A DNA stretch of 64,000 nt, from contig CAZGSX010000002.1 of the NCBI GenBank assembly GCA_964528475.1, positions 5,641-69,640 of the forward strand, written 5' to 3'. The notes beneath the pieces were generated by a model. That model did not search any database, was not told the origin of the DNA, and was given only the letters and a program-made list of their open reading frames with translations. Positions 44,597 through 60,087 of this stretch are shown piece after piece. Source of the stretch: an uncultured Anaerolineales bacterium (lineage in GTDB: Bacteria; Chloroflexota; Anaerolineae; B4-G1). The first letter of the stretch is position 1. Every line of letters begins with the position of its first letter. The translations under genes and the position numbers were made by a program.

Positions 44597-44645
44597 AAAG
44601 GATGCAGGCAACCGAGCACGGCCTGGACAAGGAGAGGCGACCTCT

Positions 44646-45329
44646 GTGACAGACAACCGTCATCCCGCTGCAAAGGCGTTATCGGCAGTGCCCTACTTCA
44701 GCATGTTGGACAGCCACGTGCAGCGCGCCATCAGCGAGGCAGCCATTCGGCGGGGCTATCACGCCGATGAAATCGTCTTTCTGGAGGGAGAGCCATGCAC
44801 GGGGCTTTACGTGGTGGAGGAAGGATGGCTGAAGACCGTAAAGACCTCCCAGGAAGGCCGGGAACAGGTCCTCCGCTTCGTGGGCCCAGGGCAGGTCGTC
44901 AACGAGGTTGGCGTCTTCGCGGACACCCAGAATCCAGCTACGGCAGTAACCCTCGCGCCGTCGACCATATGGCTGATCAATCGGGACGCAATCCTGGGGC
45001 TCCTCGAGGAGTATCCGCAGCTCGCCCAGCGGGTGGTGGAGAGGCTGTCGCGACGCGTGCTGCATCTGCTCTCTCTGGTGGAGGACCTTTCCTTGCGCAC
45101 GGTAGAGGCGCGACTGGCCCGGTATCTCTTAGAACGGGCCGACGAACAAACCCTGCGGCGGAGGCGCTGGGCCACCCAGGCAGAGATGGCAGCACGGCTA
45201 GGAACCGTGCTAGATGTCCTCAATCGCGCGTTGCACCAACTGACCAGGGAAGGGCTCATCGAAGTAGAGCGACACCAGATCCAAATCCTCGACGAAGAGG
45301 GACTGAGAGTCAAGGCTGGGCTGGACTAA
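44646..45329 (+). CDS. Crp/Fnr-family transcriptional regulator
   Basis: cNMP-binding beta-roll (IVFLEGEPCTGLYVVEEGWLK) plus a C-terminal HTH (ARLGTVLDVLNRALHQL). GTG start; the ATG at 44706 is an alternative. Confidence 0.8.
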   Translation: MTDNRHPAAKALSAVPYFSMLDSHVQRAISEAAIRRGYHADEIVFLEGEPCTGLYVVEEGWLKTVKTSQEGREQVLRFVGPGQVVNEVGVFADTQNPATAVTLAPSTIWLINRDAILGLLEEYPQLAQRVVERLSRRVLHLLSLVEDLSLRTVEARLARYLLERADEQTLRRRRWATQAEMAARLGTVLDVLNRALHQLTREGLIEVERHQIQILDEEGLRVKAGLD

Positions 45330-45377
45330 CTGAAACCTATCCAGTTCGACAAAAGTCGAAGACATCCAGGCGCTCAG

Positions 45378-45659
45378 GTGGTATGCTATCCGCAGAAGCT
45401 TGAGCGTTTCTGGTTTCTGGGTAGGTCTGTGAACAAGAGAGAGCACGCGTCACCGTGTCGGCCAATACCGCTGATTGATCGCTCGCGCTGCGTCGGATGC
45501 GGTGTATGTGTCGTCGTGTGCCCCAGACAAGCCTTGACTGTCACGGACGGCAAGGCAATGGTCTCACACCCGCTGGCTTGTGACTACCATGGCCTATGCG
45601 AAAGGGTCTGCCCCACGGGGGCGATTCAACGTCCATTCGAAATCGTCACCGTGAGGTGA
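45378..45659 (+). CDS. 2x[4Fe-4S] ferredoxin
   Basis: CVGCGVCVVVCP and CDYHGLCERVCP motifs. ATG preceded by AGGTGG. Confidence 0.75.
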   Translation: MVCYPQKLERFWFLGRSVNKREHASPCRPIPLIDRSRCVGCGVCVVVCPRQALTVTDGKAMVSHPLACDYHGLCERVCPTGAIQRPFEIVTVR

Positions 45660-45750
45660 AGGAGAAGCATACTCGTGAGGCCCCAGAAGCACGATTCTTC
45701 CACCGTCGTGCCCTGACGGTGGCTGCCGTAGCCAACTACCGAGAGGAGAA

Positions 45751-46095
45751 ATGAACATGAAGATTATCCATGCCCTGGGGGCGCCGGAGGCGCCCAATCC
45801 CCACAATGTGAGCGCGCGAGCGCTGCACGATTCGGAGCACGTGCAGGTGTCGATGGTCACCCTGGAGCCGGGCGAGAACCTAAAGCGGCATGTCACACCG
45901 GTCGATGTCTTTTTCTATGTCATCGAAGGCAACGGCATCGTCGAGATCGGCGACGAACAAGAGCCTGTCTCCGCCGACATGCTGATCGACAGCCCCGCTG
46001 GCATTCCACACCGCCTGTTGAACGAGAGCGATGACACCTTCCGCTTCCTCGTGGTGAAGACCCCGCGCCCAGTCCGGGCCACCAAAGTGCTGTAG
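45751..46095 (+). CDS. cupin domain protein
   Basis: Cupin beta-barrel motifs with His residues. Preceded by GAGAGGAG. Confidence 0.6.
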   Translation: MNMKIIHALGAPEAPNPHNVSARALHDSEHVQVSMVTLEPGENLKRHVTPVDVFFYVIEGNGIVEIGDEQEPVSADMLIDSPAGIPHRLLNESDDTFRFLVVKTPRPVRATKVL

Positions 46096-46109
46096 GGGAG
46101 GGACAGATC

Positions 46110-46925
46110 ATGCCTAGTGATATGACCCTGAACCCTTTGATCCTGGTCAAGTTCCTTCTCTGGATCGCGACCGTTGTGGCCGCCACACTACTCCTGCGTC
46201 GACGAAAGGTAACCTCTAAGATGCGGCTTGCCTTTCTGGTGGGTGGCGTACTCATCTTTGGATTGCTCTTCGGACTCGTTGTCCCAGCTGGCCTGAACCC
46301 GAATCCAGTGGCGTCCCTGCGCACGCTGCTCACCAGTCTACTAGTACGCGGTCAGTTGGTCGTGCCTGTTGCCGCGATGCTGCTCATCCTACTGGTGGCG
46401 GTGTTCGTTTCCAACAAATCGATCTGCGGCTGGGCCTGCCAGCTGGGGCTGTTGCAGGATCTGCTCCATCGTGTGAATCTCCCAAAGTGGGAACCACCCT
46501 TCTGGCTTTCGAACACCGTGCGCATCCTGGCCTTCCTCGGGTTGCTGGGGGGGCTGATCGTTGCGGGGATGGACTGGATCGGCGTGATCGATCCGTTCCT
46601 GATCTTCTCCTTCAACATCACCTGGGCGATCGGTCTGTTCTCCGCGGCCGTGCTCGTCGCCGCCCTGTTCGCTTACCGGCCCTGGTGCCGGTTCCTGTGC
46701 CCGTTTGGGCTAGTGGGATGGCTACTGGAGCAGGTAAGCCTGATGCGCCCGCGTATCGATAGGGACTTATGCAAGGAATGCCGACTGTGCGTCAAGGCTT
46801 GCCCTTCGGGAGCCATGGGGGATTTCTACGACGATGCCAAGATCCATGCGGATTGTTTTGCCTGCGGCGCCTGCATCGAGGCCTGCCCTCAAGAGGGCGC
46901 ACTCGAATGGCGTACCAACGCATAA
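46110..46925 (+). CDS. NapH/MauN-like membrane-bound 4Fe-4S binding protein
   Basis: Four predicted TM segments with CGWAC and CRFLCPFG, plus a C-terminal pair of CxxCxxCxxxCP motifs. Confidence 0.7.
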   Translation: MPSDMTLNPLILVKFLLWIATVVAATLLLRRRKVTSKMRLAFLVGGVLIFGLLFGLVVPAGLNPNPVASLRTLLTSLLVRGQLVVPVAAMLLILLVAVFVSNKSICGWACQLGLLQDLLHRVNLPKWEPPFWLSNTVRILAFLGLLGGLIVAGMDWIGVIDPFLIFSFNITWAIGLFSAAVLVAALFAYRPWCRFLCPFGLVGWLLEQVSLMRPRIDRDLCKECRLCVKACPSGAMGDFYDDAKIHADCFACGACIEACPQEGALEWRTNA

Positions 46926-47906
46926 TCGTGGAGCTGGCAAGGCACGCAGACGGATCACTTGTTCGCCTATGCCCGCAAGGGGACTCCACGTCGGGAATCA
47001 ACGGGCGATCGGCCATCGGCATGAGACGTTGAGGAGCTCGGGCAGCTTGGGTATAGGACAAACCCTTGAGATAGCTCCGGGGCCGCACCGTCACTGGCCT
47101 ACTCTTGAGTACCGCCGATCCAAGCTTCGCTCACGCAACACTTGGCCCACCAAGCCAAGCTATGCCAGGAGGCCTGACCTGGTGGCGGTGCGCCTCCCTC
47201 GTGGCACGTACCAGCCTTCGTGGACGGTATTGTCGCGGAATGGACCTTGGAGATCGGAAAGGTAGACAAACTGGGACCGCTACTGGCGCTATCTCTCTTG
47301 ACCTGGGTCGCGACGCAATTCATGGCGCTGCCGATGAAGTACTCCGGCGACTAGAACCGAGCCGGGGTGCGAACGACGCCAAAGGTCGGAGGCTTCAACT
47401 CGGCGCGCCGCTTCATGGCCCTGGCAGACGGTCTGCACATCTTCGTCCTGGTAGACGCGGGTTAGCTATTGCTCATCTGCCCGTACTGTCTCGCATTGCT
47501 CGGCTTCTTGGGCACCGTGATGCTGGCGGTGTCGCTGCGGCCCAGCTGGCAGCCATCGGCCAAGCTCAACGGCGTCCTATTTGAGTTCGTGTCCGTTGAT
47601 GTGCAGCGTTCCAAGGTTCTCGTCGTGGTTGGGGCCGTCGCAAAGGAACTGTAGGCGCCTGCCACCCCCGTGACGTGCCGTTGTCCCGCTTAGAGCAACG
47701 GCCCTACTGCACCCACAAAGAGAGGAGCATCTATAAGTCGTGGCAACTGATCCGACCTCTGGGGCTCTCCAGAGGCCATCAAATCGAATTCCCCACTACC
47801 GAGATAGCGACTTCCGTGAGACGCCCGTTGATGCATCCCCACCGTTTGACTGCCGGAAGTCCCCGTGCTATACTTATTTTAGCAGTCGCTTAATCACTAA
47901 CATGCA

Positions 47907-48239
47907 ATGAATCATATACCCGAGTTGGCCAGGTTCTTCAAAGCCCTCGGTGACGAGACCCGATTGCGTCTAGTAGCCTTGCTGGCACGGCAGGAGCGCG
48001 GAAGCGCCCTCTGCGTGGGCCGGCTGGCGCACGAACTGGATACGACAGCCTCCAACGTCTCTCAGCATCTGCGCGTGCTTAAGGACCTGGGATTGGTGCA
48101 CAAGGAACGGCGGGGGTATCGGATTCACTACTTCCTGGATGAAGAACAGGTGACAGCCTATGGCGAGGCTGCCCAGGAGTTGCTGGGGATGGAGCTCTGC
48201 GGTGGATCTTCATCGGAGGATCAACCGGCGCAAGAATAG
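47907..48239 (+). CDS. ArsR/SmtB-family metalloregulator
   Basis: 'LGDETRLRLVALL' wHTH signature. Cys residues in the alpha3 region (ALCVGRLA). Confidence 0.8.
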   Translation: MNHIPELARFFKALGDETRLRLVALLARQERGSALCVGRLAHELDTTASNVSQHLRVLKDLGLVHKERRGYRIHYFLDEEQVTAYGEAAQELLGMELCGGSSSEDQPAQE

Positions 48240-48317
48240 CGCACGTTACAGTCCGGTGGGAGCTGCCTCGGTCCTGTCGGGAAGACGCTGGGAGACGGAG
48301 ATCGAATAGCAGAGGCG

Positions 48318-49499
48318 ATGAGCAACCATCCAAACTCCGCGACCACGAACGACGAGTACAGGGATTTCGAATTCAACCTCCGAGAGCTGGCTGGCTCGAT
48401 GGGGGACTTCGGCACCCTGTTTCCCCTTGCCATCGGGTATATCGCCGTCAATGGGCTCAATCCCGCCGGATTGTTCATCATGATGGGCCTGGCCAACATC
48501 GCGCTGGGCCTGATCTACAGACTCCCGATGCCTCTGGAGCCGAAGAAGGTCGTGGCGGTCACAGCTATCTCGCAAGAGTGGCCCCCTTCGCTTATCCACG
48601 CCTCCGCCTTCAGCCTGGGCCTGATCTGGTTTCTGCTTGTCTTCTCCGGCCTGCTACGAAGAATTGTCTCGATGACCCCACTCTTCTTGGTACGCGGCAT
48701 TCAGATCGCTCTGGGGGTGATGCTGGGCTGGCGTGCCATCGAGATGATGAGGCCGGCTCCGCTGCTCGGTCTGGTGGCCGTGCTGATCGCTCTCGTGCTG
48801 CGCGAGAACCGCTACGCGCCAGCAGCCCTGGTGATCATGGCGCTTGGCATGGGCTTGATGGCTTGGCGGGGAGAGCTACAAGAAGTGGTCGTCTTCGACA
48901 TCACCCTGCCGCCGCTCACATTTCCGCACTTGAGTGAAATGTGGGAGGCAATGGTCCTGGCCGGCTTTGCTCAGATCCCGCTCTCCATCACCAACGCCGT
49001 CATCGCCGCCGCGGCGCTGATCCGAGAGTACTTTCCCGACAAGCCAGTGACCGAACGCAAGCTGATGCTGAATATGGGCGTGATCAACGTGATTGTGTCC
49101 TTCTTCGGAGGCATGCCCACGTGTCACGGCGCGCAGGGATTTGCGGGCCAGTACTACTTTGGAGCCAGGACAGGGGGCACGCCCATCCTGGAGGGTCTCA
49201 TCGAGATCTCTCTGGGGCTCTTCCTCAGCCGATCCATCGCCAACATCCTGATGAGCTTCCCCGTGGCGCTCATCGGAGGCATGATGTTTATGGTAGCGGT
49301 TCAGCTGGCCAAGGGGGCGATGAGACTGCGGGGATGGAAACTAGGACTGGCGTTGACGACCGCCGCTGTCTCTGTGGTCACCAATATGGCAGTGGGTTTC
49401 GTCATTGGATTGGCCCTCACTCATCTGCTGCGGAATCTGAAGGAGCGGGGCAAGCTAGCCTATCTCCTTCCGGAAGAGGAGTTCTTCACGGATGAGTGA
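48318..49499 (+). CDS. MOT1-family (MFS-type) molybdate/tungstate-like transporter
   Basis: Two conserved MOT1 motifs: 'ELAGSMGDFGTLFPL' and 'CHGAQGFAGQYYFGARTG'. About 10 TM segments. Confidence 0.65.
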   Translation: MSNHPNSATTNDEYRDFEFNLRELAGSMGDFGTLFPLAIGYIAVNGLNPAGLFIMMGLANIALGLIYRLPMPLEPKKVVAVTAISQEWPPSLIHASAFSLGLIWFLLVFSGLLRRIVSMTPLFLVRGIQIALGVMLGWRAIEMMRPAPLLGLVAVLIALVLRENRYAPAALVIMALGMGLMAWRGELQEVVVFDITLPPLTFPHLSEMWEAMVLAGFAQIPLSITNAVIAAAALIREYFPDKPVTERKLMLNMGVINVIVSFFGGMPTCHGAQGFAGQYYFGARTGGTPILEGLIEISLGLFLSRSIANILMSFPVALIGGMMFMVAVQLAKGAMRLRGWKLGLALTTAAVSVVTNMAVGFVIGLALTHLLRNLKERGKLAYLLPEEEFFTDE

Positions 49500-50761: not shown

Positions 50762-51492
50762 TGTGGCGGGACAGCTTGCGGGGTCTGCTCTACGTGGCGT
50801 GGAAGGACATGCGCGCTTACTACTTCAAACCACCCAACATCAGCTGGGGCATGCTATTCCCAGGGGCGCTCATCCTCGCCTTTGCGGTACGGACGCCCGG
50901 CGACCTGCGAGCTCTCATCCCGGGATTGGTCGCCATGACCGCCCTCTTCAGTGCAACGTCGATGGAGGCCATTGTCATCACATTTGAGCGGCGCACGGGC
51001 GCGCTGGAGCGGCTGCTACTCGCGCCTATGACTCTCCCAGCGATGCTTGCAGGCAAGGTACTGGGCGGCATGCTATTCGGATTCACCATCAGCGGGGTCG
51101 TGCTGTTGGGCGTGAGCCTAGGTTTCGGGGTGGCCATGTGGCGGGTTCCCGCCGCGCTCCTGGCGCTCTGCTTCTCTACAGCTGCCTTCTCGGCGCTGGG
51201 AGCCCTGGTATCCGTGGCCGTGCAGGAGGTGTTCGAGGCCCAGACGCTGGCCAATGCCATCCGTTTCCCGATGATTTTCCTGTGCGGCGTGTTCGTGCCG
51301 GTGGAGGAGTTGCCGGGTACACTGCCCACCGTAGCGCGTCTTCTACCCCTGACGTACGCGGTGGAGGGATTGGACATCGCCCTGGCACGCGGTACCGCCT
51401 CGGCAATGGTGCTCCATCTTGCCGTACTGGCGGGTTTCACAGGGGCACTGTTCTCCGTCGCCACGGCGATTCTGCGCCGCCGGCTGGACTAG
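50761..51492 (+). CDS. ABC-2 type transporter permease
   Basis: Six-TM ABC-2 topology, overlapping the stop of the upstream ATPase. Confidence 0.75.
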   Translation: MWRDSLRGLLYVAWKDMRAYYFKPPNISWGMLFPGALILAFAVRTPGDLRALIPGLVAMTALFSATSMEAIVITFERRTGALERLLLAPMTLPAMLAGKVLGGMLFGFTISGVVLLGVSLGFGVAMWRVPAALLALCFSTAAFSALGALVSVAVQEVFEAQTLANAIRFPMIFLCGVFVPVEELPGTLPTVARLLPLTYAVEGLDIALARGTASAMVLHLAVLAGFTGALFSVATAILRRRLD

Positions 51493-51777
51493 GTCGATCG
51501 CGGAGTGGATTTCACCCTTGCATCCCTACCGCTGGCAGACAGATCGCCGGGTTCGTCGGCCGCGGTGAGGCGAGACTTGACGGGACCTATAGGACAGGAG
51601 GTCGGGTTTCCAAGCGACGGCAGATACCTCCCGTCCTCGAACAGGATCAAACCCCACGCAGGGTCGACGGATAGACCCAGTGCAGACGAGGGACTTGACA
51701 ATCCAGCGGCTCGAGGTAGATTATATGCATAGCGCACATAAGTGGAGCCCGGATAGTCGAGCTGGAACGAGGCTAAG

Positions 51778-52182
51778 ATGAACCACGGACAACTAGATGA
51801 GCACGGGCACTGTCACTGCCGGGGCGGACAGATCCAGGGTTTCATCCGCCCGCGCCTGTTGCTTCAACTCTCGAAGAAGCCCGCTCACGGCTACGAGCTG
51901 TTGGAAGTACTGGAGAGCGAGAACCTGCCCACACCGGACCCCAGCACCCTCTATCGTACGCTACGTCATTTCGAAGAAGAAGGACTGGTCCATTCCACCT
52001 GGGACACAAGCGGTGCTGGGCCGGCGCGTCGCGTCTACGAGCTAACCGACCAAGGGGTGGAGTTCTTGCATGCCTGGGCGGTGAACATCCGCCGCATCCG
52101 CAGCCGATTAGGCAAGTTCTTGGCCGAGTACGAAGCTCGGTTTCAGATTCACACAGAAGAGAGAGCTGAAACCAATGTGTGA
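51778..52182 (+). CDS. PadR-family transcriptional regulator with a His/Cys-rich N-terminal extension
   Basis: 'HGYELLEVLE...STLYRTLRHFEEEGLV' PadR wHTH. N-terminal 'DEHGHCHCRGG'. Confidence 0.75.
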   Translation: MNHGQLDEHGHCHCRGGQIQGFIRPRLLLQLSKKPAHGYELLEVLESENLPTPDPSTLYRTLRHFEEEGLVHSTWDTSGAGPARRVYELTDQGVEFLHAWAVNIRRIRSRLGKFLAEYEARFQIHTEERAETNV

Positions 52183-52399
52183 GCATGATGTCCATCAGAG
52201 CCATCACGCCCACTGCGAGCCTCCGGTCCACGCCGCATGCTGCTGTGGCCCGTCCGTGGGCAGGCCAGGCCTCCCCTGCACGCATCGCTTTCCTACGAGA
52301 GAGAAACGCATTGCCCGACTGCAAGCGCAGCTTAAAGACTTGGAGGGCGAGGCCCAGGCCGCAAAGGGGCGCATGGCCGCATTGCGAGCCGCCGACTAG
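52175..52399 (+). CDS. small His/Cys-rich protein with a C-terminal coiled coil, translationally coupled to PadR
   Basis: ATGTGTGA overlap with the PadR stop. 74 aa: 'HQSHHAHCEPPVHAACCCGP' followed by a heptad region (RIARLQAQLKDLEGEAQAAK). High GC3. Confidence 0.45.
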   Translation: MCEHDVHQSHHAHCEPPVHAACCCGPSVGRPGLPCTHRFPTREKRIARLQAQLKDLEGEAQAAKGRMAALRAAD

Positions 52400-52687
52400 C
52401 GAGTGGGGTAGTTGCGATGCACTTCGCTTCAGGGGTGCATTGTCACCGCACCGATGGCGGAGGTCTGTCTCCGTACTCACAGAGAGCGCACCCGATACGT
52501 GGCAACACATCCCAGCATTCAGACCGGGAACGTGCCCTCATCCAGAAGACAGGCGATTCTTACAGTGGAATGAAGATCAAAGTGGACGGCTTCGTCTGCG
52601 GTTCGTGTATCAAGGCCTGCCCGCAGGAAGAAGCCCTGGGCTGCTGGGCAAGAGCGTGGCAGGGCTCAAGAAGAGACGGAGAATCTG

Positions 52688-53002
52688 ATGACGATCTCGA
52701 TCATTAAGACGAGGGGTTTCAGGGACTTCCCGCGGAACAGCTCAGAGATAGCGCCACAGCGCCTTATCGACAGCGACAACGTAACTGCACTGTTGGTGAA
52801 TGTGGATGCCGATCAAGCAATAGAGCCGTGCCTCATGTCTGCCGCCGTGCTCTACTACGTCATCGAGGGAAGCGGCAGTCTCATCGTTGAAGGTGAGCAG
52901 GCTGACCTTGAAACCGGTTCACTGGTGCTCGTTCCTCCTGGAACTACGCGGAGCATTTCCGCAACTGAACCGCTGCGTGTGCTGGCCGTACAAGTGCGAT
53001 GA
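52688..53002 (+). CDS. small His-free cupin-like protein (paralog A)
   Basis: 104 aa. GGAG RBS. About 50% identical to the ORF at 57233. Cupin-like 'VLYYVIEGSGSLIVEGEQADL...LVLVPPGT' with no His. Confidence 0.55.
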   Translation: MTISIIKTRGFRDFPRNSSEIAPQRLIDSDNVTALLVNVDADQAIEPCLMSAAVLYYVIEGSGSLIVEGEQADLETGSLVLVPPGTTRSISATEPLRVLAVQVR

Positions 53003-53252
53003 ACGGCAGAGCGTGGGGCGGCCGATAGCCTCTTGTGGTCCTGACAGACCAGGCGCCGGCACTCCGACAGGGGAACCTACGCTCGATCTGCGGAGGCTGC
53101 AGACTCAGCGCTGCCGTCCGACATTTCGTCGGGAGGGCGCAGGTTGGAGAGCTTCGCCCCCGAAGACAAGTCAAGAGAAACGTGGTGCCGCTGACGCAAA
53201 ATGCGAGAGAACTCATGCTGTCACCGCCCTGAGTGTATCGTCCTGAGAAGGA

Positions 53253-55250
53253 GTGCTTATGTCACGGCGAACTGATGCTGCTGGCCAAGAGAGGAGACAG
53301 TCAGGCCCCGGGAAAGCGGGGGAACGGGGCCGTGACCGCGGCCCTGGTCGGTCGCGCCCCGGAGGTGGGAGACCGGGGAGTGGCGCAAAGGGACAGGGAC
53401 CTCAGTTGTCTGGACCCGCTTGGCCCATTCTGCGGAGGCTGTTGCGTACCATGCGGCCCCACGCTCGCGTCTTGGCTGGCGTCATGCTGGCTGCGGTGGC
53501 GACGACGGCGATCGAGCTCGCCCCACCCTGGATCATCCGCCTCTCTGTGGACCGCTACATCCTCGGCGGGCAGCCAGGGCGGACCTGGTGGGCGGCGGTG
53601 GGCCTGCTCGGGCTCTCTCTGGTGCAGGGCGCGGTGGACTTCGCCCGTCTCTATCTTGGCGCCCAAACCGGGCAGCGGATCGTGTTCGACCTGCGCAACA
53701 GCGTGTTTGAGCACCTGACCCGCCTCTCGTTCTCGTTCTACGATCAGGCGCGAACAGGTGACCTGATGTCGCGGGTCACAGCGGACACCGACGTATTGAG
53801 CGACTTCTTCGGCCGGGCCGCGGTGATCGTGCTCAACAACCTGCTCACCCTGCTTGGCATCCTGGTTGTCCTCCTCATCTGGGACTGGCGGCTGGGCCTG
53901 CTCTACGTCTGCTTTCTACCCCTGGTCGTGCACGGTCAATGGGTTTACGCGCGACGGGTACGCCCTGCAATGGCCCGGGTTCGCCGCTCACTGTCGGCCT
54001 TGACAAGCGCCCTCCAGGAGAGCCTGGCTGGCATCCTGGTGATCAAGCTCTTTGGGCGCGAAGCTTTTGAGCGGGAGAGGATTGCTCAGCAGAGCAAAGC
54101 ATATCGGGAAGCCAACATTGGCACAGCACGTATCACTTCCCTGTGGATGCCCTACGCCAACGTCATCATGGGTGTGGCGACCGCGGTGGTGATTTGGGTT
54201 GGGGGCAGTGGCGTGATCGGCGGTCTCATCACCCTGGGTACACTGATCGGCTTCACCACCTACATCCAGATGCTGCTTCGGCCCATCCGCCAGACGGGGA
54301 TGATGCTGAATGTGGTCATGCGCTCCATGGCTGCGGCCGAGCGCGTGTACGAGGTGCTCGACACCGAACCCGACGTCCGGGACGCCCCCGGTGCCTATCC
54401 CCTGCCGCCCGTTGAGGGATACGTCCGCTACGAAGGGGTCACTTTTGCCTACGATGGGGGCCCGGCAGGGTCAGAAGCGCTGCGGGACGTGGGTCTGGAG
54501 GCCGAGCCAGGCGAGATGGTGGCCTTGGTGGGTCCCTCTGGAGCTGGCAAGAGCACGCTCGTCCACCTGCTCCCCCGTTTCTACGAACCGCAGAAGGGGC
54601 GGATAAGCATTGATGGATACGATGTTCGGGAGGTTACAGTGCGGAGCCTGCGCGACGCCATTGGGATAGCCCTCCAGAGCGTGTTTCTGTTTGACGCCTC
54701 GATTGGTGAGAACATCGCTTACGGTAACCCCCGCGCCACCCAGGACCAGATCGAGTGGGCTTCACGAACAGTCCAGATGGACAAGTTCATCCGCTCACTA
54801 CCTCTGGGCTACGGCACGCCGGTCGGTGAGCGCGGTGTGCGTCTCTCCGGTGGACAAAAACAACGCATCGCCCTGGCCCGCGTGTTGCTCACCGATCCAC
54901 GTATCCTGATCCTGGATGAGCCGACCTCCAGCGTCGATGCCGAGACAGAGCGCCGGATGCAGGAGGCACTGACCGAGGTACGCGCTGGACGTACGACGTT
55001 TGTGATTGCTCACCGGCTGTGGACAGTCCAGGAGGCCGACCAAATTCTGGTCCTCGACGACGGGCGCATTGTCGAGCGTGCCCGCGGTAGGCACGGCCAA
55101 TCGGCCCACGAGGCCCTGGTGGCGGCGGACGGTCTTTATCGGCAACTGTACGACCTCCAATTTCAGGCGGAGGCACTCCAGGACACGCGGCTGCCGGAGA
55201 GGGGCACCACGGCTGCACGTGAATCGGTTGTGGAAAGGAGGGGAGGATGA
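53253..55250 (+). CDS. ABC exporter, fused TMD-NBD (type I, MsbA-like), first subunit of a probable heterodimer
   Basis: Six-TM domain plus an NBD with 'GPSGAGKST', 'LSGGQKQRIALAR' and 'ILILDEPTSSVD'. The Arg/Gly-rich N-terminal 60 aa of the ORF is probably not translated; the start is likely near 53407-53449. Confidence 0.85.
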   Translation: MLMSRRTDAAGQERRQSGPGKAGERGRDRGPGRSRPGGGRPGSGAKGQGPQLSGPAWPILRRLLRTMRPHARVLAGVMLAAVATTAIELAPPWIIRLSVDRYILGGQPGRTWWAAVGLLGLSLVQGAVDFARLYLGAQTGQRIVFDLRNSVFEHLTRLSFSFYDQARTGDLMSRVTADTDVLSDFFGRAAVIVLNNLLTLLGILVVLLIWDWRLGLLYVCFLPLVVHGQWVYARRVRPAMARVRRSLSALTSALQESLAGILVIKLFGREAFERERIAQQSKAYREANIGTARITSLWMPYANVIMGVATAVVIWVGGSGVIGGLITLGTLIGFTTYIQMLLRPIRQTGMMLNVVMRSMAAAERVYEVLDTEPDVRDAPGAYPLPPVEGYVRYEGVTFAYDGGPAGSEALRDVGLEAEPGEMVALVGPSGAGKSTLVHLLPRFYEPQKGRISIDGYDVREVTVRSLRDAIGIALQSVFLFDASIGENIAYGNPRATQDQIEWASRTVQMDKFIRSLPLGYGTPVGERGVRLSGGQKQRIALARVLLTDPRILILDEPTSSVDAETERRMQEALTEVRAGRTTFVIAHRLWTVQEADQILVLDDGRIVERARGRHGQSAHEALVAADGLYRQLYDLQFQAEALQDTRLPERGTTAARESVVERRGG

Positions 55251-57058
55251 CCATCCGCGGCGGATTCATGGGTCGTTTGCGGGGCGGCGAACAAGAGAAA
55301 AGGTATCGCCTGTCACAACTGGATCGCCAAGCGCTGGACACGCTCTGGCGCTACCTCCGGGTCCACCGTGGCCGTCTGCTCCTTGCGCTCCTGGCTATGC
55401 TCACCGTCACGGCGACCACGCTGACCGCACCCTATCTGACCAAAGTGGCACTCGACACCTACATCGCGACCGGGGACCTGCGCGGACTGACGCTGATCTC
55501 GTTGCTCTACCTGACCATCACCGGCGTCTACTGGCTAGCCACGTACTGGCAGGGGTATCTCTCCTCGTGGGTTGGGCAGCACATCGTCTATGCTATCCGC
55601 CGCGACCTTCTGGCGCAAGTGCTCCGCCAGTCTATGGCCTTCCACGAACAAGAGCGGGTGGGCCAGATCGTCTCGCGACTGACCAATGACGTGAACGCAC
55701 TGGCTGACCTGGCCTCCAGCGGTGCCCTCAACCTGATCAACGACGCGCTCTCTCTGCTGGGCATCGTCGTCGTTATGATGCTCCTCGACGTCCGGCTCGC
55801 CGTAGTGACCCTGGTCTCAGTCCCCGTCGTTCTTGTCAGCATGGGGGTCCTGGGCAAGCAGATGCGCCGCACGTACCGCGACGTGCAGCAGGCCCTGGCC
55901 GAGGTCAACACCGGCGTCGAGCAGGGGGTGACAGGGATGCGCGTCGTGCAGTCACTCTCGCGCGAGACATTCACATTGGAGGAGTTCCAGAACCTGAGCT
56001 TGCGCAACATGCGCGCCAACCTGCGAGCTGCTACGCTCTTTGCCGCTGTGTTTCCGATCATGACGATCACCAACGCGCTGGGACTGGCTCTCGTGCTGGG
56101 CTACGGTGGCGCACGGGTGGCCAGTGGCGCCATCACCATCGGAGTCCTCCTCGCCTTCATCGGCTACGTGAACCGCTTCTTCGGTCCCCTCAGAGAGTTG
56201 AGCTTGGTGTATAGCACCTTCCAATCCGCGGCTGCCTCCCTGGATCGAATTGCCGACTACATGAGCCGCGAACCCGAGGTTTTCGAACCTGCGGAGCCCC
56301 GACACCCAGCAGGAGGGTTCGAGGGGGAGATCAGATTCGAGCACGTGACCTTCGGGTATGGAGACGATCCAGTGCTCCACGACTTGAGCCTCTACGTGCC
56401 CGCGGGGCAGACAGCGGCGTTGGTTGGTCCAACTGGCGCGGGTAAGAGCACCATCGCCAAGCTCCTCGCCCGCCTATACGACGTGGACGAGGGGACCGTG
56501 CGAGTGGACGGGATAGATGTGCGGGAGATCTCTCGCTCCGATCTGGACAGCCTGATCATCATCGTCCCCCAGGACATATTCCTGTTTGCGGATACAGTCG
56601 GCGAGAACATCCGTTATGGCGATCCAAGCGCCGATGAGGAGCAGGTGAAGGCGGCCGCGCGCCGAGCTCAGGCGCACGATTTCATTACCCAGCTCCCCCG
56701 CGGGTACCAGACCCAGGTGGGCGAGCTAGGCGCGATGCTGTCGGGCGGGCAGAAGCAGCTGATCGCCTTTGCCCGCGCCCTCCTAGCCGACCCCAAGATC
56801 CTGGTGCTCGACGAGGCGACAGCCAACGTGGACGCCTACACCGAGGCTATGATTCAGCGGGCGATGGATGAAATCCGTCGCGACCGCACGACGGTGATCA
56901 TTGCCCACCGCTTCTCGACGCTACGGAAGGCAGATCGAATAGTGGTGCTGGACGAGGGGCGGATCGCGGGCCAGGGCGTCCACCAGGAGCTGATCGAGTC
57001 CAACCCGACCTACCAGCGGCTGTATCGGCGCCAGTGGGCGGGCGAGGAGTCCAGCTGA
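55247..57058 (+). CDS. ABC exporter, fused TMD-NBD, second subunit
   Basis: ATGA overlap with the upstream gene. 'GPTGAGKSTIAKL', 'LSGGQKQLIAFAR' and 'ILVLDEATANVD'. Confidence 0.85.
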   Translation: MTIRGGFMGRLRGGEQEKRYRLSQLDRQALDTLWRYLRVHRGRLLLALLAMLTVTATTLTAPYLTKVALDTYIATGDLRGLTLISLLYLTITGVYWLATYWQGYLSSWVGQHIVYAIRRDLLAQVLRQSMAFHEQERVGQIVSRLTNDVNALADLASSGALNLINDALSLLGIVVVMMLLDVRLAVVTLVSVPVVLVSMGVLGKQMRRTYRDVQQALAEVNTGVEQGVTGMRVVQSLSRETFTLEEFQNLSLRNMRANLRAATLFAAVFPIMTITNALGLALVLGYGGARVASGAITIGVLLAFIGYVNRFFGPLRELSLVYSTFQSAAASLDRIADYMSREPEVFEPAEPRHPAGGFEGEIRFEHVTFGYGDDPVLHDLSLYVPAGQTAALVGPTGAGKSTIAKLLARLYDVDEGTVRVDGIDVREISRSDLDSLIIIVPQDIFLFADTVGENIRYGDPSADEEQVKAAARRAQAHDFITQLPRGYQTQVGELGAMLSGGQKQLIAFARALLADPKILVLDEATANVDAYTEAMIQRAMDEIRRDRTTVIIAHRFSTLRKADRIVVLDEGRIAGQGVHQELIESNPTYQRLYRRQWAGEESS

Positions 57059-57232: not shown

Positions 57233-57547
57233 ATGACTATCTCGCTCGTCAAGACGAAGCGCCTGAAGAACTTGCCATCAAAGAGCCCGGAGATTAAACC
57301 GCAGCGGCTGCGGGAGGCGAACGATCTGGCCGCCGTATTGGTTAACCCGGACGTCGGCCAGACGACAGAGCCGTGTCAGATGTCATCCGGGGTGCTCTAC
57401 TACGATATCGCGGGAAGCGGTAGCCTAACCGTCGAGGAAGGGCAGGCTGACCTCCAGACCAGTTCGCTGGCGCTGGTTCCTGCTGGCACTGGGCGGAGCA
57501 TCTCGGTGGTGGGAGCAACGCGCGTGCTGGCGGTGCAAGCCTCATGA
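57233..57547 (+). CDS. small His-free cupin-like protein (paralog B)
   Basis: 104 aa. AGGGAGGG RBS. Paralog of the ORF at 52688..53002. Stop overlaps the LmbE-like start (ATGA). Confidence 0.55.
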   Translation: MTISLVKTKRLKNLPSKSPEIKPQRLREANDLAAVLVNPDVGQTTEPCQMSSGVLYYDIAGSGSLTVEEGQADLQTSSLALVPAGTGRSISVVGATRVLAVQAS

Positions 57548-58335
57548 GTGGACGGGCTTCGCTGAATCAGCCACGAACGGTGATTGCCGTGCTTGCCCAT
57601 CCAGACGACGAGGTATTTCGCTGCGGCGGGACGTTGGCACTCCTGGCCCAGCGAGGAGTTCGGGTCCACACCCTGACGGCAACGCGGGGTGAGGCAGGGT
57701 CTCGCGGCGAACCACCCCTCTGTACAGCCGGCCAGCTATCCGCCGTGCGAGAGGTAGAGCTACGCTGCGCCTGTCTCGCGCTGGGAATCGCCCCGCCGCG
57801 CCTACTTGACTATCGGGACGGGACACTGTCCGACGTGAATCAACAAGAGGGCGCAGCCCACGTGCTTGACGCCGTGCGCGAACTCCGGCCCCAGGCGCTC
57901 ATCACCTGGCCGCCACACGGGCTCTCCGGTCACCCCGACCACGTGGCGGTGAGCGGCTGGACACGGTTGGCCTTTGAAGCAACCCAGGCCACGGGCCTGG
58001 AGGCCCCGCTGGCGCTGTATCACATGGTGATCCCCGAGCGTGTTGCGGAGGCTGTCGGATTCTCGGGCCTGCACGCCACGCACGATGACGACGTAACCCT
58101 TACAGTCGACGTCACGCCGGTGTGGGAGGAGAAACTGAGTGCTATACGCTGCCACCGCACACAAACAGGGGAGAGCCCTATTCTGGAAGCCCCGGAGGAA
58201 CGACAGCGGCTGTTTCTGGGCACCGAGCATTTCGAGCAGGTGGTAGATCAAGAAAAGGGCGATGTACTAAGAAACTATCTGCTAGAGAAGGACCTGAAAT
58301 CAAGGAGGACAAGGACGAATGACCAACGCGATTGA
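57544..58335 (+). CDS. PIG-L/LmbE-family N-acetylglucosaminyl deacetylase or amidase
   Basis: 'VIAVLAHPDDEVFRCGGTLAL' zinc-binding motif. 17-nt overlap with the downstream ABC gene. Confidence 0.8.
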   Translation: MSGRASLNQPRTVIAVLAHPDDEVFRCGGTLALLAQRGVRVHTLTATRGEAGSRGEPPLCTAGQLSAVREVELRCACLALGIAPPRLLDYRDGTLSDVNQQEGAAHVLDAVRELRPQALITWPPHGLSGHPDHVAVSGWTRLAFEATQATGLEAPLALYHMVIPERVAEAVGFSGLHATHDDDVTLTVDVTPVWEEKLSAIRCHRTQTGESPILEAPEERQRLFLGTEHFEQVVDQEKGDVLRNYLLEKDLKSRRTRTNDQRD

Positions 58336-59326
58336 GGTGCAGAACCTGACAAAGTACTACGGAGAGCTGCTCGCCGTCGACCAGATCAACTTCGAAGTTA
58401 GCGAAGGCGAGGTGTTCGGCTTTCTGGGCCCAAACGGCGCCGGAAAGACCACGACCCAGCGCATGCTGACTACGCTACTGGAACCGACGGATGGGCGCAT
58501 CATGATCAACGGCCACGATCTGGAACACGACCCGGTGCCCATCAAGCGACGCATGGGGTTGGTGCCGGAGGAATCGAACGTCTACACGGAGCTCACGGCC
58601 TGGGATAACCTGATGTTCACGGCGCGGCTATATCTGGTTGAGCCCAGCGAGCGTGCCGAGCGTGCCCGTGATCTGCTGGAGACCTTCGGGCTGTGGGAGA
58701 AGCGGGACGTGAAGGTCGAGGATTTCTCCAAGGGGATGCGGAGACGATTGAGCATCGCCATGGCGATCATCCACCAGCCAGGGCTCCTCTTTCTGGACGA
58801 GCCAACACCGGGCCTGGATGCTCAGAGCACGCGTGCGATTCGCGACCTGATTCGCGAGCTCAATGCAGAAGGCACCACGATTTTCCTGACCACCCACCAG
58901 ATCGAGGAGGCGAACCAGCTCTGCGATCGGGTGGCGATCATCAACCACGGTCAGATCGCCGCAATCGACACGCCGGAGCAGCTCAAGGCTGCCTTCCGAA
59001 AGGTGCAGTCGGTAGAAGTGGCGGTGGAGCCGGATGGACAGGCCCACGGGGAGTCACTCGAGGCGCTGCCGGGCGTCACCCAATCGATCAAGATGGGAGA
59101 CAAGTGGCGGTTGTACACCGAGCAACCGGGGGCGCTCCTGACCCACGTGGTGGACTATGCCCAGTCGCACGATCTGGAGGTGGTGAGCCTGTGCACGCTG
59201 GGGCCGAGTCTCGAGGACGTCTTCCTGGAGATCACAGGCCAGGAGATCGGCGCGGTGCGGCACGAGACAGGGGAATCGGAGGGGAAAAAGGGAGGAGCAA
59301 GAGGGATGCAGGGGGGAAAACGATGA
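58319..59326 (+). CDS. ABC transporter ATP-binding protein (ABC-2 type)
   Basis: 'GPNGAGKTT', 'LLFLDEPTPGLD' and ABC signature. Confidence 0.85.
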   Translation: MTNAIEVQNLTKYYGELLAVDQINFEVSEGEVFGFLGPNGAGKTTTQRMLTTLLEPTDGRIMINGHDLEHDPVPIKRRMGLVPEESNVYTELTAWDNLMFTARLYLVEPSERAERARDLLETFGLWEKRDVKVEDFSKGMRRRLSIAMAIIHQPGLLFLDEPTPGLDAQSTRAIRDLIRELNAEGTTIFLTTHQIEEANQLCDRVAIINHGQIAAIDTPEQLKAAFRKVQSVEVAVEPDGQAHGESLEALPGVTQSIKMGDKWRLYTEQPGALLTHVVDYAQSHDLEVVSLCTLGPSLEDVFLEITGQEIGAVRHETGESEGKKGGARGMQGGKR

Positions 59327-60087
59327 ACGAAGGAATTGTGAAGCGACTGACGGATGAAGTGACCCAGGCGTGGACAGTGGCGATTAAGGACATCAAGGTC
59401 TACTACCTCAAGCCTGGGATGATCATGTTCGGCTTGATGATGCCCTTCTTCATGTTCTTCTCCTTCTCGGTGAAGCGCGAGATGGCGGCCGCGCAGGGAG
59501 TGGCGCGCCTTCTGGCGCTGACGACGTTCTTCACAGCGGCATCGACCGGGCCGTTTATCATCCCCTTGGAGAGGCGGCTGGGGACGTACGACCGGCTGCT
59601 GGCGGCGCCGATGTCGCTCCTTTCGCTGCTGCTAGGCAAGATTGCGGTCGGCGCGTTTTTCGCCATCGCGGTGTCTCTTGTGTCGTTGGTTGTTGGCGTG
59701 GCGATCTTCGGCGCGACCGTGGTGTCTCCCGGGTTTCTGGTCGCCGGCGTGATTATTGGATCGTTCTCCTTCTCGACCCTGGGCCTGATCTTCGGCTCCA
59801 TCCCCACCCGTAACCCCGGGGATGTGCAGATGCCCAGCACTCTACTCCGCTGGGGCCTGCTTTTCATCAGCGGCATCTTTGTCCCACTGACGGAGATGGG
59901 CGCGGTGGCACGCACGGTGGCTTACCTGTCTCCTCTCACCTATGCGCAAGATCTCATGAATCACGCAGTGCTCAATGCGGGACTGTTCAATCCGTGGTTG
60001 GACGTGATTGTGCTTCTGCTGGGGTGCGTGGTGTTCCTCATACCATCGCTCCTGATGCATCGGAGGAGCCGACGGCTGGGATACTGA
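59323..60087 (+). CDS. ABC-2 type transporter permease
   Basis: ATGA overlap with the ATPase. Six TM segments. Confidence 0.75.
   Translation: MNEGIVKRLTDEVTQAWTVAIKDIKVYYLKPGMIMFGLMMPFFMFFSFSVKREMAAAQGVARLLALTTFFTAASTGPFIIPLERRLGTYDRLLAAPMSLLSLLLGKIAVGAFFAIAVSLVSLVVGVAIFGATVVSPGFLVAGVIIGSFSFSTLGLIFGSIPTRNPGDVQMPSTLLRWGLLFISGIFVPLTEMGAVARTVAYLSPLTYAQDLMNHAVLNAGLFNPWLDVIVLLLGCVVFLIPSLLMHRRSRRLGY

What the first reader, a model, noticed from the sequence alone, without database searches (positions are those of the whole stretch)
52175..52399. 74-aa His/Cys-rich coiled-coil ORF overlapping the PadR stop; PadR itself carries an HGHCHC tail
The ATG at 52175 overlaps the PadR TGA as ATGTGTGA, the classic signature of translational coupling. 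The product begins MCEHDVHQSHHAHCEPPVHAACCCGP... and ends in a heptad-like segment. Third-codon GC is as high as in neighbouring genes. It is reminiscent of the small coiled-coil partner proteins (DUF5320-like) sometimes encoded next to PadR regulators, but here the His/Cys content is unusually high in both proteins. It could be a metallochaperone-like or metal-sensing partner that modulates PadR.
Basis: seen in the sequence. Interest (0 to 1): 0.5.

Follow-up and report, generated by a model that had tools for sequence, protein, structure and literature searches.

The report
Cys/His-rich zipper protein coupled to PadR
The 74-codon reading frame is a real gene that the one set of gene calls inspected for this contig misses; it belongs to a large unnamed family of small proteins with a cysteine/histidine-rich tail and a leucine-zipper helix, usually made together with a PadR repressor ahead of export genes, and probably binding a metal or metalloid.

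Summary
PadR (51778..52182) and a 74-aa ORF (52175..52399) overlap as ATGTGTGA.

The ORF is a real gene.
- Substitutions among close relatives pile up at its third codon positions.
- An HMM of the family finds a homologue directly after the PadR gene in 63 of 77 informative genomes, across several phyla.

The Logan gene calls for identical contigs instead place a 167-aa ORF in another frame. The 74-aa protein is absent from a 5.8-billion-protein database.

The product has a disordered Cys/His-rich N-terminus (residues 1-41) and one confident helix (42-73) with a clean a/d heptad. The family has at least 1,713 clusters and no Pfam domain. Its hits to DUF5320 are all below threshold.

PadR is an LmrR-type short PadR. 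It carries its own conserved Cys/His N-terminal arm. A conserved palindromic operator lies next to the -10 box.

Downstream lie cupin, ABC exporter and PIG-L genes. About a quarter of family members lack PadR, and at least three of these follow an ArsR gene instead.

Best reading: a metal(loid)-binding buffer or chaperone co-produced with a thiolate-type repressor. A direct PadR co-sensor role remains open. Ligand and binding are untested.

The parts
51695..51724 (+). Sigma-70-like promoter of the padR operon: TTGACA, 16-18 nt spacer, TAGATT/GATTAT
   Evidence: 10 of 12 consensus matches; 2 sites found against 0.3 expected in shuffles. TTGACA followed by a TATAAT-like box lies at the same relative place in relatives.
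51722..51740 (.). Palindromic operator TATATGCA-N3-TGCATATA (here TATATGCATAGCGCACATA, 2 mismatches), overlapping or just after the -10 box
   Evidence: the only match in the 64-kb window at up to 3 mismatches (0.03 expected); 36 of 38 matches in 500 kb of related loci lie within 200 nt upstream of the PadR start.
51778..52182 (+). PadR-family repressor, 134 aa, short LmrR-like subfamily: winged HTH plus one long C-terminal helix
   Evidence: Pfam PF03551, 65 bits against a cut-off of 27. 621 homologues. AlphaFold2 model has helices H16-33, H38-47, H55-68, a wing at 71-89 and H91-122. Foldseek top hits are PadR/LmrR/Rv3488 structures.
51802..51819 (+). HGHCHC motif in the disordered N-terminal arm of PadR (residues 9-14)
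   Evidence: C12 is conserved in at least 90% of 32 homologues and usually lies in a CxC or CC motif. Arms across 80 loci are Cys/His-rich and many start with MC. Residues 1-19 have pLDDT below 50.
52175..52399 (+). Small partner gene, 74 aa plus stop; the ATG overlaps the PadR stop as ATGTGTGA
   Evidence: sequence; codon-position substitution pattern; 17 homologues by phmmer; 1,713 family clusters; 63 of 77 PadR loci carry it.
52175..52297 (+). Cys/His-rich, predicted disordered N-terminal region (residues 1-41), including MCEH and CCCGP
   Evidence: pLDDT is below 50 over most of residues 1-30. Across the family this region is 16-98 aa long, with 14% His and 17% Cys; 65% of members start with MC.
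52298..52396 (+). Conserved C-terminal helix (residues 42-73) with a leucine-zipper-like a/d heptad, preceded by the conserved RRFxTREE motif
   Evidence: helix H42-73 with pLDDT 92-98. L49, L53 and A62 are invariant and E44, I46, E50, Y52, L56, E59, V63, E64, E65 nearly invariant in the family. The only PDB sequence hits are designed coiled coils.
52570..52707 (+). Remnant of the C-terminus of a NapH-like 4Fe-4S membrane protein gene (...VDGFVCGSCIKACPQEEALGCW...); the rest of 52400..52687 is not conserved
   Evidence: Weak Fer4 hits. An intact homologue (ending ...ADCFACGSCIRACPQEEALGW) lies within about 1.7 kb downstream of PadR, ahead of the cupin where one was found, in L003/L004/L005/L064. 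An intact paralogue lies at 46110..46925. Alignment with relatives collapses over 52440-52620.
52688..53002 (+). Small cupin (104 aa), a conserved downstream neighbour
   Evidence: Cupin_2, 33.8 bits. The cupin cluster occurs in 14 related loci. It is conserved in L001/L002/L006.
53253..57058 (+). Two half-transporter ABC exporter genes (ABC_membrane + ABC_tran); the likely true start of the first is 53451
57233..60087 (+). Conserved cassette: second cupin (57233..57547), PIG-L deacetylase/amidase (57544..58335), ABC-2 ATPase (58319..59326), ABC-2 permease (59323..60087)
   Evidence: The same gene kinds follow PadR-partner in relatives: ABC ATPase in 29 loci, ABC-2 permease in 21, cupin in 14, PIG-L in 12.

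Best explanation
The 74-aa ORF is a genuine gene. Its protein has two parts. The first is a disordered N-terminal region packed with Cys and His, which is the ligand-binding part. The second is a C-terminal leucine-zipper helix, which should bring two or three such tails together. The gene is translated in tight coupling with a short LmrR-type PadR repressor that carries its own Cys/His arm. PadR is inferred to bind the palindrome TATATGCA-N3-TGCATATA next to the -10 box of its own promoter. That would hold down an operon running through the small gene and a cupin, and probably on to the ABC exporters and the cupin/PIG-L/ABC-2 cassette. I infer that a thiophilic ligand, most likely a transition metal or a trivalent metalloid, binds the PadR arm and releases the repressor. 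The small protein made at the same time would then act as a cytosolic buffer or chaperone for that ligand, like a metallothionein held together by a zipper, while the exporters remove it. Shown here: the gene is real, it is conserved, it is coupled to PadR, the domain layout, the promoter and operator, and the gene context. Inferred: DNA binding by PadR at this site, ligand binding, ligand identity, oligomeric state, and the extent of the operon.
For: Gene reality: third-position substitution excess; homologues by exhaustive phmmer; at least 1,713 family clusters. Linkage: the partner lies directly after PadR in 63 of 77 loci from Anaerolineae, Dehalococcoidia, Ktedonobacterales, Acidobacteriota, Aminicenantes and Myxococcales MAGs, with short or overlapping junctions and a Shine-Dalgarno-like motif in 52 of 56. 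Structure: disordered 1-41 and helix 42-73. Ligand-binding character: the N-terminal region averages 17% Cys and 14% His; 65% of members start with MC; 30% start MCxH; 6% carry an N-terminal CxxC[GD]C, the motif that in HypB binds Ni(II) with picomolar affinity through the N-terminal amine and Cys2/5/7 (PMC12284835). His and Cys content of the PadR arm and of the partner tail co-vary (Spearman 0.46 and 0.45, n=42, not corrected for phylogeny). Autonomy from PadR: in a reverse scan about a quarter of partners lack PadR. At least three follow an ArsR gene, one of which (L111) has the classical CVC metal(loid) motif. One sits in an ArsR-thioredoxin-SBF-ArsP cluster. The helix consensus is unchanged in these. 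Regulation: promoter and a highly specific operator. Context: ABC-2 exporters, ArsP_1 permease, ChrA, MOT1-like transporter, ArsR, P-type ATPase. Precedent: a PadR repressor controlling a trivalent-metalloid resistance operon is cited as reference 21 of PMC11566425 (I could read the title only).
Against: No metal-binding family matches: no bacterial metallothionein, HMA or CopZ-type hit. The conserved downstream genes (cupin, PIG-L, ABC-2) are not classical metal-resistance genes. No P1B ATPase, CDF or RND metal pump is a regular neighbour. The transporter types are mixed, so no single ligand emerges. Many non-core helix positions (E44, E50, Y52, E59, E64, E65) are nearly invariant, more than simple self-association needs, which hints at a conserved binding partner. 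The window protein departs from the consensus at several of these positions (K44, Q50, Q52, A63, K64, G65). The 450-nt gap before the first ABC gene may hold a separate promoter, so the operon may end at the cupin.
Confidence: 0.45

Rival explanations
1. The small protein is a co-sensor or anti-repressor that binds PadR directly. Its helix would dock on the PadR dimer. Its Cys/His tail and the PadR arm would together form the ligand site. Ligand binding would then switch PadR on or off the operator. This would be a soluble, single-helix counterpart of the HAAS-PadR dyad.
For: Near-obligate adjacency and translational coupling imply equimolar synthesis. The Cys/His arms match and co-vary in composition. 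Surface positions of the helix are strongly conserved. About 80% of family members directly follow a winged-HTH regulator gene, while the transporter genes vary. The HAAS-PadR precedent comes from PMC11237479. Six of 43 relatives give weak HAAS hits, best E=0.0028.
Against: About a quarter of partners occur without PadR, after ArsR or alone (for example after rpoC), and their helix consensus is unchanged. Some PadR homologues that keep the Cys arm lack the partner (8 loci; L085). No fusion to PadR was seen among the 120 closest PadR homologues. No complex model could be computed.
Confidence: 0.3
2. The pair responds to thiol-reactive stress (oxidants or electrophiles), not to metals. Cysteines of the PadR arm and of the small protein would be oxidised or alkylated. 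The small protein would act as a sacrificial or sensing thiol protein. The PIG-L enzyme and the ABC-2 pump would process and export low-molecular-weight-thiol conjugates.
For: PIG-L (the family that holds mycothiol and bacillithiol deacetylases and conjugate amidases; my own knowledge) together with ABC-2 exporters are the most regular downstream genes. Neighbours in some loci include glutaredoxin, thioredoxin_3, rubrerythrin, nitroreductase, hemerythrin and Fe-S proteins.
Against: The high His content and the N-terminal MCxH and CxxCGC motifs are typical of metal coordination and are not needed for redox sensing. Part of the context is ArsR with CVC, ArsP_1, ChrA and MOT1.
Confidence: 0.15
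3. The small ORF encodes an exported or modified Cys-rich peptide, a RiPP-like precursor whose conserved helix serves as a recognition follower. The neighbouring ABC transporter would secrete it.
For: It is a small Cys-rich ORF next to ABC exporters, with a hypervariable Cys-rich part joined to a conserved part.
Against: No radical-SAM, YcaO, lanthionine synthetase or peptidase gene is among the recurrent neighbours. The topology is reversed compared with usual leader-core precursors. Many members lie far from any transporter.
Confidence: 0.03
4. The 74-aa ORF is not a gene, and the 167-aa ORF called by automatic annotation (52185..52688, another frame) is the real one.
For: The Logan gene calls for four contigs carrying an identical PadR place that ORF there. 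The 74-aa protein is absent from the 5.8-billion-protein collection.
Against: Substitutions fall on the third positions of the 74-aa frame, not of the 167-aa frame. Alignment with relatives collapses downstream of 52400, where the 167-aa ORF would continue. The 74-aa product has homologues in more than 1,700 clusters. The region 52570..52707 is explained as a remnant of another gene.
Confidence: 0.02

Closest known systems
DUF5320 (Pfam PF17253), small proteins of unknown function with a C-terminal coiled coil
   Same: Small size and a C-terminal coiled-coil helix. The weak hits always align to the C-terminal half of the model, positions 43-99 of 99. One relative is named 'DUF5320 domain-containing protein' by NCBI.
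   Different: The hits inspected score 15.9 and 16.5 bits against a gathering score of 27, and the window protein has no hit at E<=1. The N-terminal part is Cys/His-rich rather than the Gly/Pro/Arg-rich segment I recall for DUF5320 (memory, not tested). DUF5320 itself has no known function; only 2 papers mention it, both in passing.
HAAS-PadR dyads (PMC11237479)
   Same: A PadR-like wHTH gene is always paired with an adjacent helical partner gene that is proposed to pass a signal to the repressor.
   Different: HAAS is a three-helix domain with a kinked third helix carrying GxP, usually fused to membrane or sensory domains. Here there is one helix, no GxP, no membrane segment, and a Cys/His tail instead. 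Here the partner also occurs without PadR.
Regulator plus metal-buffer or chaperone operons: SmtB-SmtA, CsoR-CopZ, ArsR-ArsD (my own knowledge)
   Same: A thiolate-based repressor is encoded next to a small Cys-rich metal(loid)-binding protein and an export system. Some members here sit directly after an ArsR gene, one of which (L111) carries a CVC motif.
   Different: There is no sequence relation to SmtA/BmtA, CopZ or ArsD. The regulator is usually PadR. The binding region is disordered and joined to a leucine zipper, a layout not described for those proteins.
N-terminal extension of HypB and the C-terminal tail of SlyD (nickel storage and delivery; PMC12284835)
   Same: Disordered Cys/His-rich segment. 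Eleven of 176 family members start with M(x0-2)CxxC[GD]C like HypB, and 65% start with Met-Cys.
   Different: The window protein starts MCEHDVH and has no CxxCGC. No GTPase or FKBP domain is present. No hydrogenase or urease genes are among the recurrent neighbours.
LmrR-lmrCD of Lactococcus lactis (PadR repressor of a heterodimeric ABC multidrug exporter; cited in PMC11566425)
   Same: Short PadR fold, autoregulated palindromic operator, and two half-transporter ABC genes downstream (53253..57058).
   Different: LmrR senses drugs in a hydrophobic pore at the dimer interface. It has no Cys/His arm and no small partner gene (my own knowledge).

Membership tests
PadR family (PF03551), short LmrR-like subfamily: applies to the upstream gene | Score above the Pfam gathering threshold | tested here: met
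   65.1 bits against 27.
PadR family (PF03551), short LmrR-like subfamily: applies to the upstream gene | Winged HTH followed by a single long C-terminal helix, about 110-130 aa | tested here: met
   AlphaFold2 model. Foldseek hits to 4ejo, 6abt, LmrR and Rv3488 with TM 0.6-0.9. PDB profile hits.
PadR family (PF03551), short LmrR-like subfamily: applies to the upstream gene | Binds a palindromic operator in its own promoter | tested here: inconclusive
   A conserved palindrome lies next to the -10 box and is specific to PadR upstream regions. Binding itself was not tested.
PhaQ (TIGR02719) | Score above the equivalog cut-off | tested here: not met
   77.3 bits against 139.35. The JGI name 'poly-beta-hydroxybutyrate-responsive repressor' on some homologues is therefore not justified.
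DUF5320 (PF17253) | Score above the Pfam gathering threshold (27 bits) | tested here: not met
   The window protein has no hit at E<=1. Seventeen of 43 relatives hit, best E=1.3e-4; the two whose scores were inspected give 15.9 and 16.5 bits.
DUF5320 (PF17253) | C-terminal coiled-coil helix in a protein of about 70-110 aa | tested here: met
   Helix 42-73. Weak alignments cover the C-terminal half of the model.
DUF5320 (PF17253) | Gly/Pro/Arg-rich N-terminal motif (recalled from memory) | not tested
   No DUF5320 seed sequences were available. The N-terminus here is Cys/His-rich.
HAAS domain (PF22564; PMC11237479) | Three consecutive helices, the third kinked at a conserved GxP | tested here: not met
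   A single helix and no GxP in it. Only 6 of 43 relatives give weak hits, best E=0.0028.
HAAS domain (PF22564; PMC11237479) | Always encoded next to a standalone PadR-like wHTH | tested here: not met
   Mostly true (63 of 77 PadR loci; about 25 of 33 in the reverse scan), but there are clear exceptions.
Bacterial metallothionein (SmtA/BmtA type) | Match to a metallothionein profile or a Zn4Cys9His2-type fold | tested here: not met
   No prokaryotic metallothionein hit. One relative each hits the two Pfam metallothionein models Metallothio_Euk and Metallothio_2 (E=0.005 and 0.012), as expected for low-complexity Cys runs.
Bacterial metallothionein (SmtA/BmtA type) | Binds several metal ions through Cys/His clusters | not testable with these tools
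   Only composition is available: 17% Cys and 14% His in the N-terminal region.
HypB-type N-terminal Ni(II) site | CxxCGC at the extreme N-terminus, with Cys2, Cys5 and Cys7 | tested here: not met
   The window protein starts MCEHDVH: Cys2 only, with His4. Eleven of 176 relatives have the motif.

The most novel reading that the evidence does not exclude
PadR and the small protein form a new kind of two-protein sensor. A soluble leucine-zipper adaptor with a metallothionein-like tail would join its tail with the Cys/His arm of the repressor to build a shared metal(loid) or redox site, and so switch DNA binding. The adaptor would be a portable module that can serve either PadR-type or ArsR-type winged-helix repressors.
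Probability: 0.25. Interest if true: 0.75.

Novelty: new variant of a known kind. Interest (0 to 1): 0.55.

Why it matters
If the reading holds, it names and gives a testable role to a family of more than 1,700 small proteins. The family is widespread in Chloroflexota and seen in several other phyla. Almost all members are labelled 'hypothetical', and some are missed outright by gene callers. It would also add a Cys/His-armed branch to the PadR family, whose known ligands are mostly organic compounds. That would extend the few reports of metal(loid)-responsive PadR regulators. The operator found here makes the regulon predictable in uncultured Anaerolineae. In practice, this locus shows how high-GC small genes get replaced in annotation by longer out-of-frame ORFs.

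Tried and rejected
- The word-index protein search with the 74-aa sequence found nothing. The reason is that this gene is not called in any source.
- Pfam and NCBIfam gave only sub-threshold coiled-coil hits (DUF7310, Nnf1, FcmC, TrbJ), which I rejected as generic helix similarity.
- The PDB sequence search returned only designed coiled coils and keratin.
I repeated it with database proteins as A3.
- I prepared paired PadR-linker-partner sequences for a pseudo-complex model but did not submit them, because fused sequences fail the tool's exact-sequence rule. No test of a PadR-partner complex was therefore possible.
- The operator pattern with a 4-nt spacer gave no match. The correct spacing is 3 nt.
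- The Zhang et al. 2022 paper on a metalloid-responsive PadR is not held, so only its title is used.
- Rfam found no riboswitch or other RNA family in 51400..53500, and no intrinsic terminator was found in 51400..53300.
- I tested whether the Cys motif of PadR goes with presence of the partner and found no clear link: 43 loci have motif and partner, 8 have the motif without the partner, 20 have the partner without the strict motif.
- I tested whether the window copy is decaying. Its family HMM score (91 bits) and its identity to relatives are within the range of its clade.
Full report

PadR occupies 51778..52182 and ends ...GAA ACC AAT GTG TGA. The ATG at 52175 lies inside AAT GTG, so the two genes share the 8 nt ATGTGTGA.

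The ORF runs to the TAG at 52397..52399 and encodes 74 aa: MCEHDVHQSHHAHCEPPVHAACCCGPSVGRPGLPCTHRFPTREKRIARLQAQLKDLEGEAQAAKGRMAALRAAD.

GC3 is 0.707, similar to its neighbours. The overlapping frame has the same value, so GC3 proves nothing here. The HGHCHC of PadR is at residues 9-14, an N-terminal arm.

**2. Is it a gene?**

An ORF of this length is common by chance in this 61% GC window. Three independent results show that this one is coding.

- Among the window and five close relatives, substitutions per site are 0.28, 0.23 and 0.53 at codon positions 1, 2 and 3 of this frame. PadR next to it shows the same pattern (0.16, 0.10, 0.49). Downstream of 52400 the alignment collapses until the cupin gene.
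- An exhaustive phmmer search of 1.84 billion proteins finds 17 homologues. The best has E=1.7e-15 and is collinear over all 74 residues.
- The ORF keeps its position after PadR across phyla (section 3).

The Logan gene calls for four contigs carrying an identical PadR place a 167-aa ORF (window 52185..52688) in another frame. This explains why the word-index search of 5.8 billion proteins found not even a self-match. That 167-aa call is a mistake: its third positions are not the variable ones, and its downstream two thirds are not conserved. A comparable miscall was seen in another locus, L087, where a minus-strand ORF was called instead.

**3. Conservation and linkage**

PadR has 621 close homologues, mostly from Chloroflexota MAGs. 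I fetched 80 genomic loci around such homologues.

A profile of the small protein finds it directly downstream in 63 of the 77 loci that have enough sequence. The MAGs are labelled Anaerolineae, Dehalococcoidia, Ktedonobacterales, Thermoflexales, Acidobacteriota, Aminicenantes, Myxococcales and others.

The junction is tight. Of 56 pairs, 13 overlap and 41 have gaps of 1-18 nt. Fifty-two have a Shine-Dalgarno-like motif, which often lies in the last PadR codons; this explains the conserved ...GG...ERR and ...[DN]V ends of PadR.

None of the 120 listed carries a precomputed Pfam domain. Nearly all named ones are 'hypothetical protein', and one is called 'DUF5320 domain-containing'.

**4. The reverse test**

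I scanned metagenome contigs with the small protein as query and then looked for PadR.

About 25 of about 33 loci with enough upstream sequence have PadR directly upstream. In three exceptions the gene directly upstream is an ArsR-family regulator. One of them has the GETCVCHL motif typical of thiolate metal(loid) sensors, and PIG-L and an ABC ATPase follow (L111, L117, L129).

Look-ups by protein gave three kinds of result:
- one member inside an ArsR-thioredoxin_3-SBF-ArsP_1 cluster;
- one alone after rpoC and before a hemerythrin gene;
- two with PadR.

The helix consensus (RRFxTREERIAxLEEYLKxLQAEAKAVEERLAELKA) is the same in all settings. The protein is therefore usually, but not necessarily, a PadR neighbour.

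**5. Anatomy of the two proteins**

AlphaFold2 with 75 family sequences predicts residues 1-41 as disordered and residues 42-73 as one helix with pLDDT 92-98.

The family consensus puts I, L, L, L, A, V, L, L at successive a and d positions, which is a leucine-zipper pattern. Several non-core positions are also nearly invariant.

The N-terminal region varies from 16 to 98 aa and averages 17% Cys and 14% His. Of 176 members:
- 65% begin with Met-Cys;
- 30% begin MCxH;
- 30% contain CCC;
- 11 begin with CxxC[GD]C.

That last motif in HypB binds Ni(II) with picomolar affinity through the N-terminal amine and Cys2, Cys5 and Cys7 (PMC12284835).

PadR is a short, LmrR-type member. It has a roughly 20-aa disordered arm that is itself Cys/His-rich. 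C12 is conserved in at least 90% of homologues, usually as CxC or CC, and many arms start with MC. The His and Cys content of the arm and of the partner tail co-vary (rho about 0.45, n=42). Shared ancestry was not corrected for.

**6. Regulation**

A promoter-like site (TTGACA, 16-18 nt spacer, TAGATT/GATTAT) lies at 51695..51724.

Overlapping or just after the -10 box is the palindrome TATATGCATAGCGCACATA (51722..51740). Relatives carry TATATGCA-N3-TGCATATA at the same place.

The pattern occurs once in the 64-kb window. In 500 kb of related loci, 36 of 38 matches lie within 200 nt upstream of PadR. This is the layout of an autoregulated repressor.

No terminator-like site lies between 51400 and 53300, and no Rfam family matches the region.

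**7. Context**

In the window, the following genes sit on the same strand after the pair:
- a remnant of a NapH-like 4Fe-4S membrane protein gene (52570..52707);
- a cupin (52688..53002);
- two ABC half-transporters (53253..57058);
- a second cupin, a PIG-L enzyme and an ABC-2 ATPase and permease (57233..60087).

Across the related loci the recurrent neighbours are:

| Neighbour | Loci |
|---|---|
| ABC ATPase | 29 |
| ABC-2 permease | 21 |
| cupin | 14 |
| PIG-L | 12 |
| ArsP_1-type permease | 11 |
| ChrA | 8 |
| NapH-like protein | 6 |
| MOT1-like transporter | 5 |
| ArsR | 5 |

One locus has a P-type ATPase. The common theme is export and detoxification. No single substrate emerges.

**8. 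Interpretation**

The firm part is that this is a real small gene, missed in the only gene calls I could inspect for this contig, from a large unnamed family. It is co-translated with an autoregulated PadR that heads an export operon.

The mechanism is inferred. Several features point to a thiophilic metal or metalloid as the signal:
- the Cys/His-rich disordered tail;
- the frequent Met-Cys start;
- the occasional HypB-like motif;
- the matching arm on PadR;
- the replacement of PadR by an ArsR-family regulator, one with a CVC motif, in some loci.

The zipper would gather two or three tails into one multi-ligand site.

I favour a buffer or chaperone role (0.45). The family also occurs without PadR with an unchanged helix, and regulator-plus-chaperone operons are common.

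The main rival (0.30) is a direct PadR co-sensor, a soluble analogue of the HAAS-PadR dyad. The tight coupling, the co-varying arms and the over-conserved helix surface support it.

A thiol-stress reading (0.15) fits the PIG-L and ABC-2 genes and the redox neighbours. A RiPP-like peptide and a non-gene are unlikely.

**9. Comparison with known families**

By Pfam's criterion the protein is not a DUF5320 member: the relatives inspected score 15.9 and 16.5 bits against 27, and the window protein has no hit. The consistent alignment to the C-terminal half of that model makes a distant relation plausible.

It is not a HAAS domain, because it has one helix and no GxP. It matches no metallothionein, CopZ or ArsD profile.

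PadR is a member of PF03551 but not a PhaQ equivalog.

I found no paper describing this pair. A PadR repressor of a trivalent-metalloid operon is cited in PMC11566425, and a chrA-padR linkage is mentioned in PMC12191737.

**10. Verdict**

This is a new variant of a known kind: a regulator paired with a small ligand-binding accessory protein. Interest is moderate (0.55). It would be higher if the two proteins prove to form a joint sensor.

Noticed in passing
window 52185..52688 (+): The Logan gene calls for contigs carrying an identical PadR place a 167-aa ORF here, in a different frame from the conserved 74-aa gene. It is a miscall. A comparable miscall (a minus-strand 134-aa ORF) replaces the partner gene in L087.
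   Followed up: yes
window 52570..52707 (+); intact paralogue at 46110..46925: A 45-codon ORF (MKIKVDGFVCGSCIKACPQEEALGCW...) is the leftover C-terminus of a NapH-like polyferredoxin membrane protein gene. In L003/L004/L005/L064 an intact copy lies within about 1.7 kb downstream of PadR, ahead of the cupin where one was found. The gene has been deleted here, leaving about 290 nt of non-conserved spacer.
   Followed up: partly
window 52688..53002 and 57233..57547: Two paralogous 104-aa cupins with the same N-terminal sequence pattern (MTISxxKT...) flank the pair of ABC half-transporter genes. This suggests the ABC pair was inserted, or the cupin duplicated, inside the conserved cupin/PIG-L/ABC-2 cassette.
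   Followed up: no
window 44538..49499: Just upstream lies a second set of regulators and transporters on the same strand: Crp/Fnr-type regulator (44538..45329), small ferredoxin (45378..45659), cupin (45751..46095), NapH-like protein (46110..46925), ArsR-family regulator (47907..48239) and MOT1-like transporter (48318..49499). The ArsR resembles those found directly upstream of partner genes in L117 and L129.
   Followed up: partly
window 51591..51602 and 51626..51637: A 12-nt inverted repeat (AGGACAGGAGGT / ACCTCCCGTCCT, 92% complementary, 23 nt apart) lies between the upstream ABC-2 permease gene and the padR promoter. No T-run follows it. Its role is unknown.
   Followed up: no
L074, L076, L078 (about 4 nt after, or overlapping, the PadR stop); L063, L070: Some more distant PadR homologues are followed not by the partner but by a MinD/CooC-like P-loop ATPase (MRIAVSGKGGAGKTT...) or by a membrane permease. 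The regulator family is evidently reused with other cargo.
   Followed up: no
L010, L013, L017, L019 (partner genes): In one clade the partner is about 137 aa long. It has a very long Cys/Gly/His-rich region and an extra heptad segment inserted in the helix (...AEAEAGEAYLKDIQAEA...). In L010 the reading frame appears split by a stop between the Cys-rich part and the helix.
   Followed up: no
PadR homologues P0006, P0028, P0032, P0081, P0094: JGI names these 'poly-beta-hydroxybutyrate-responsive repressor'. The window protein scores 77 bits against the PhaQ equivalog cut-off of 139, so the name is probably over-annotation.
   Followed up: partly
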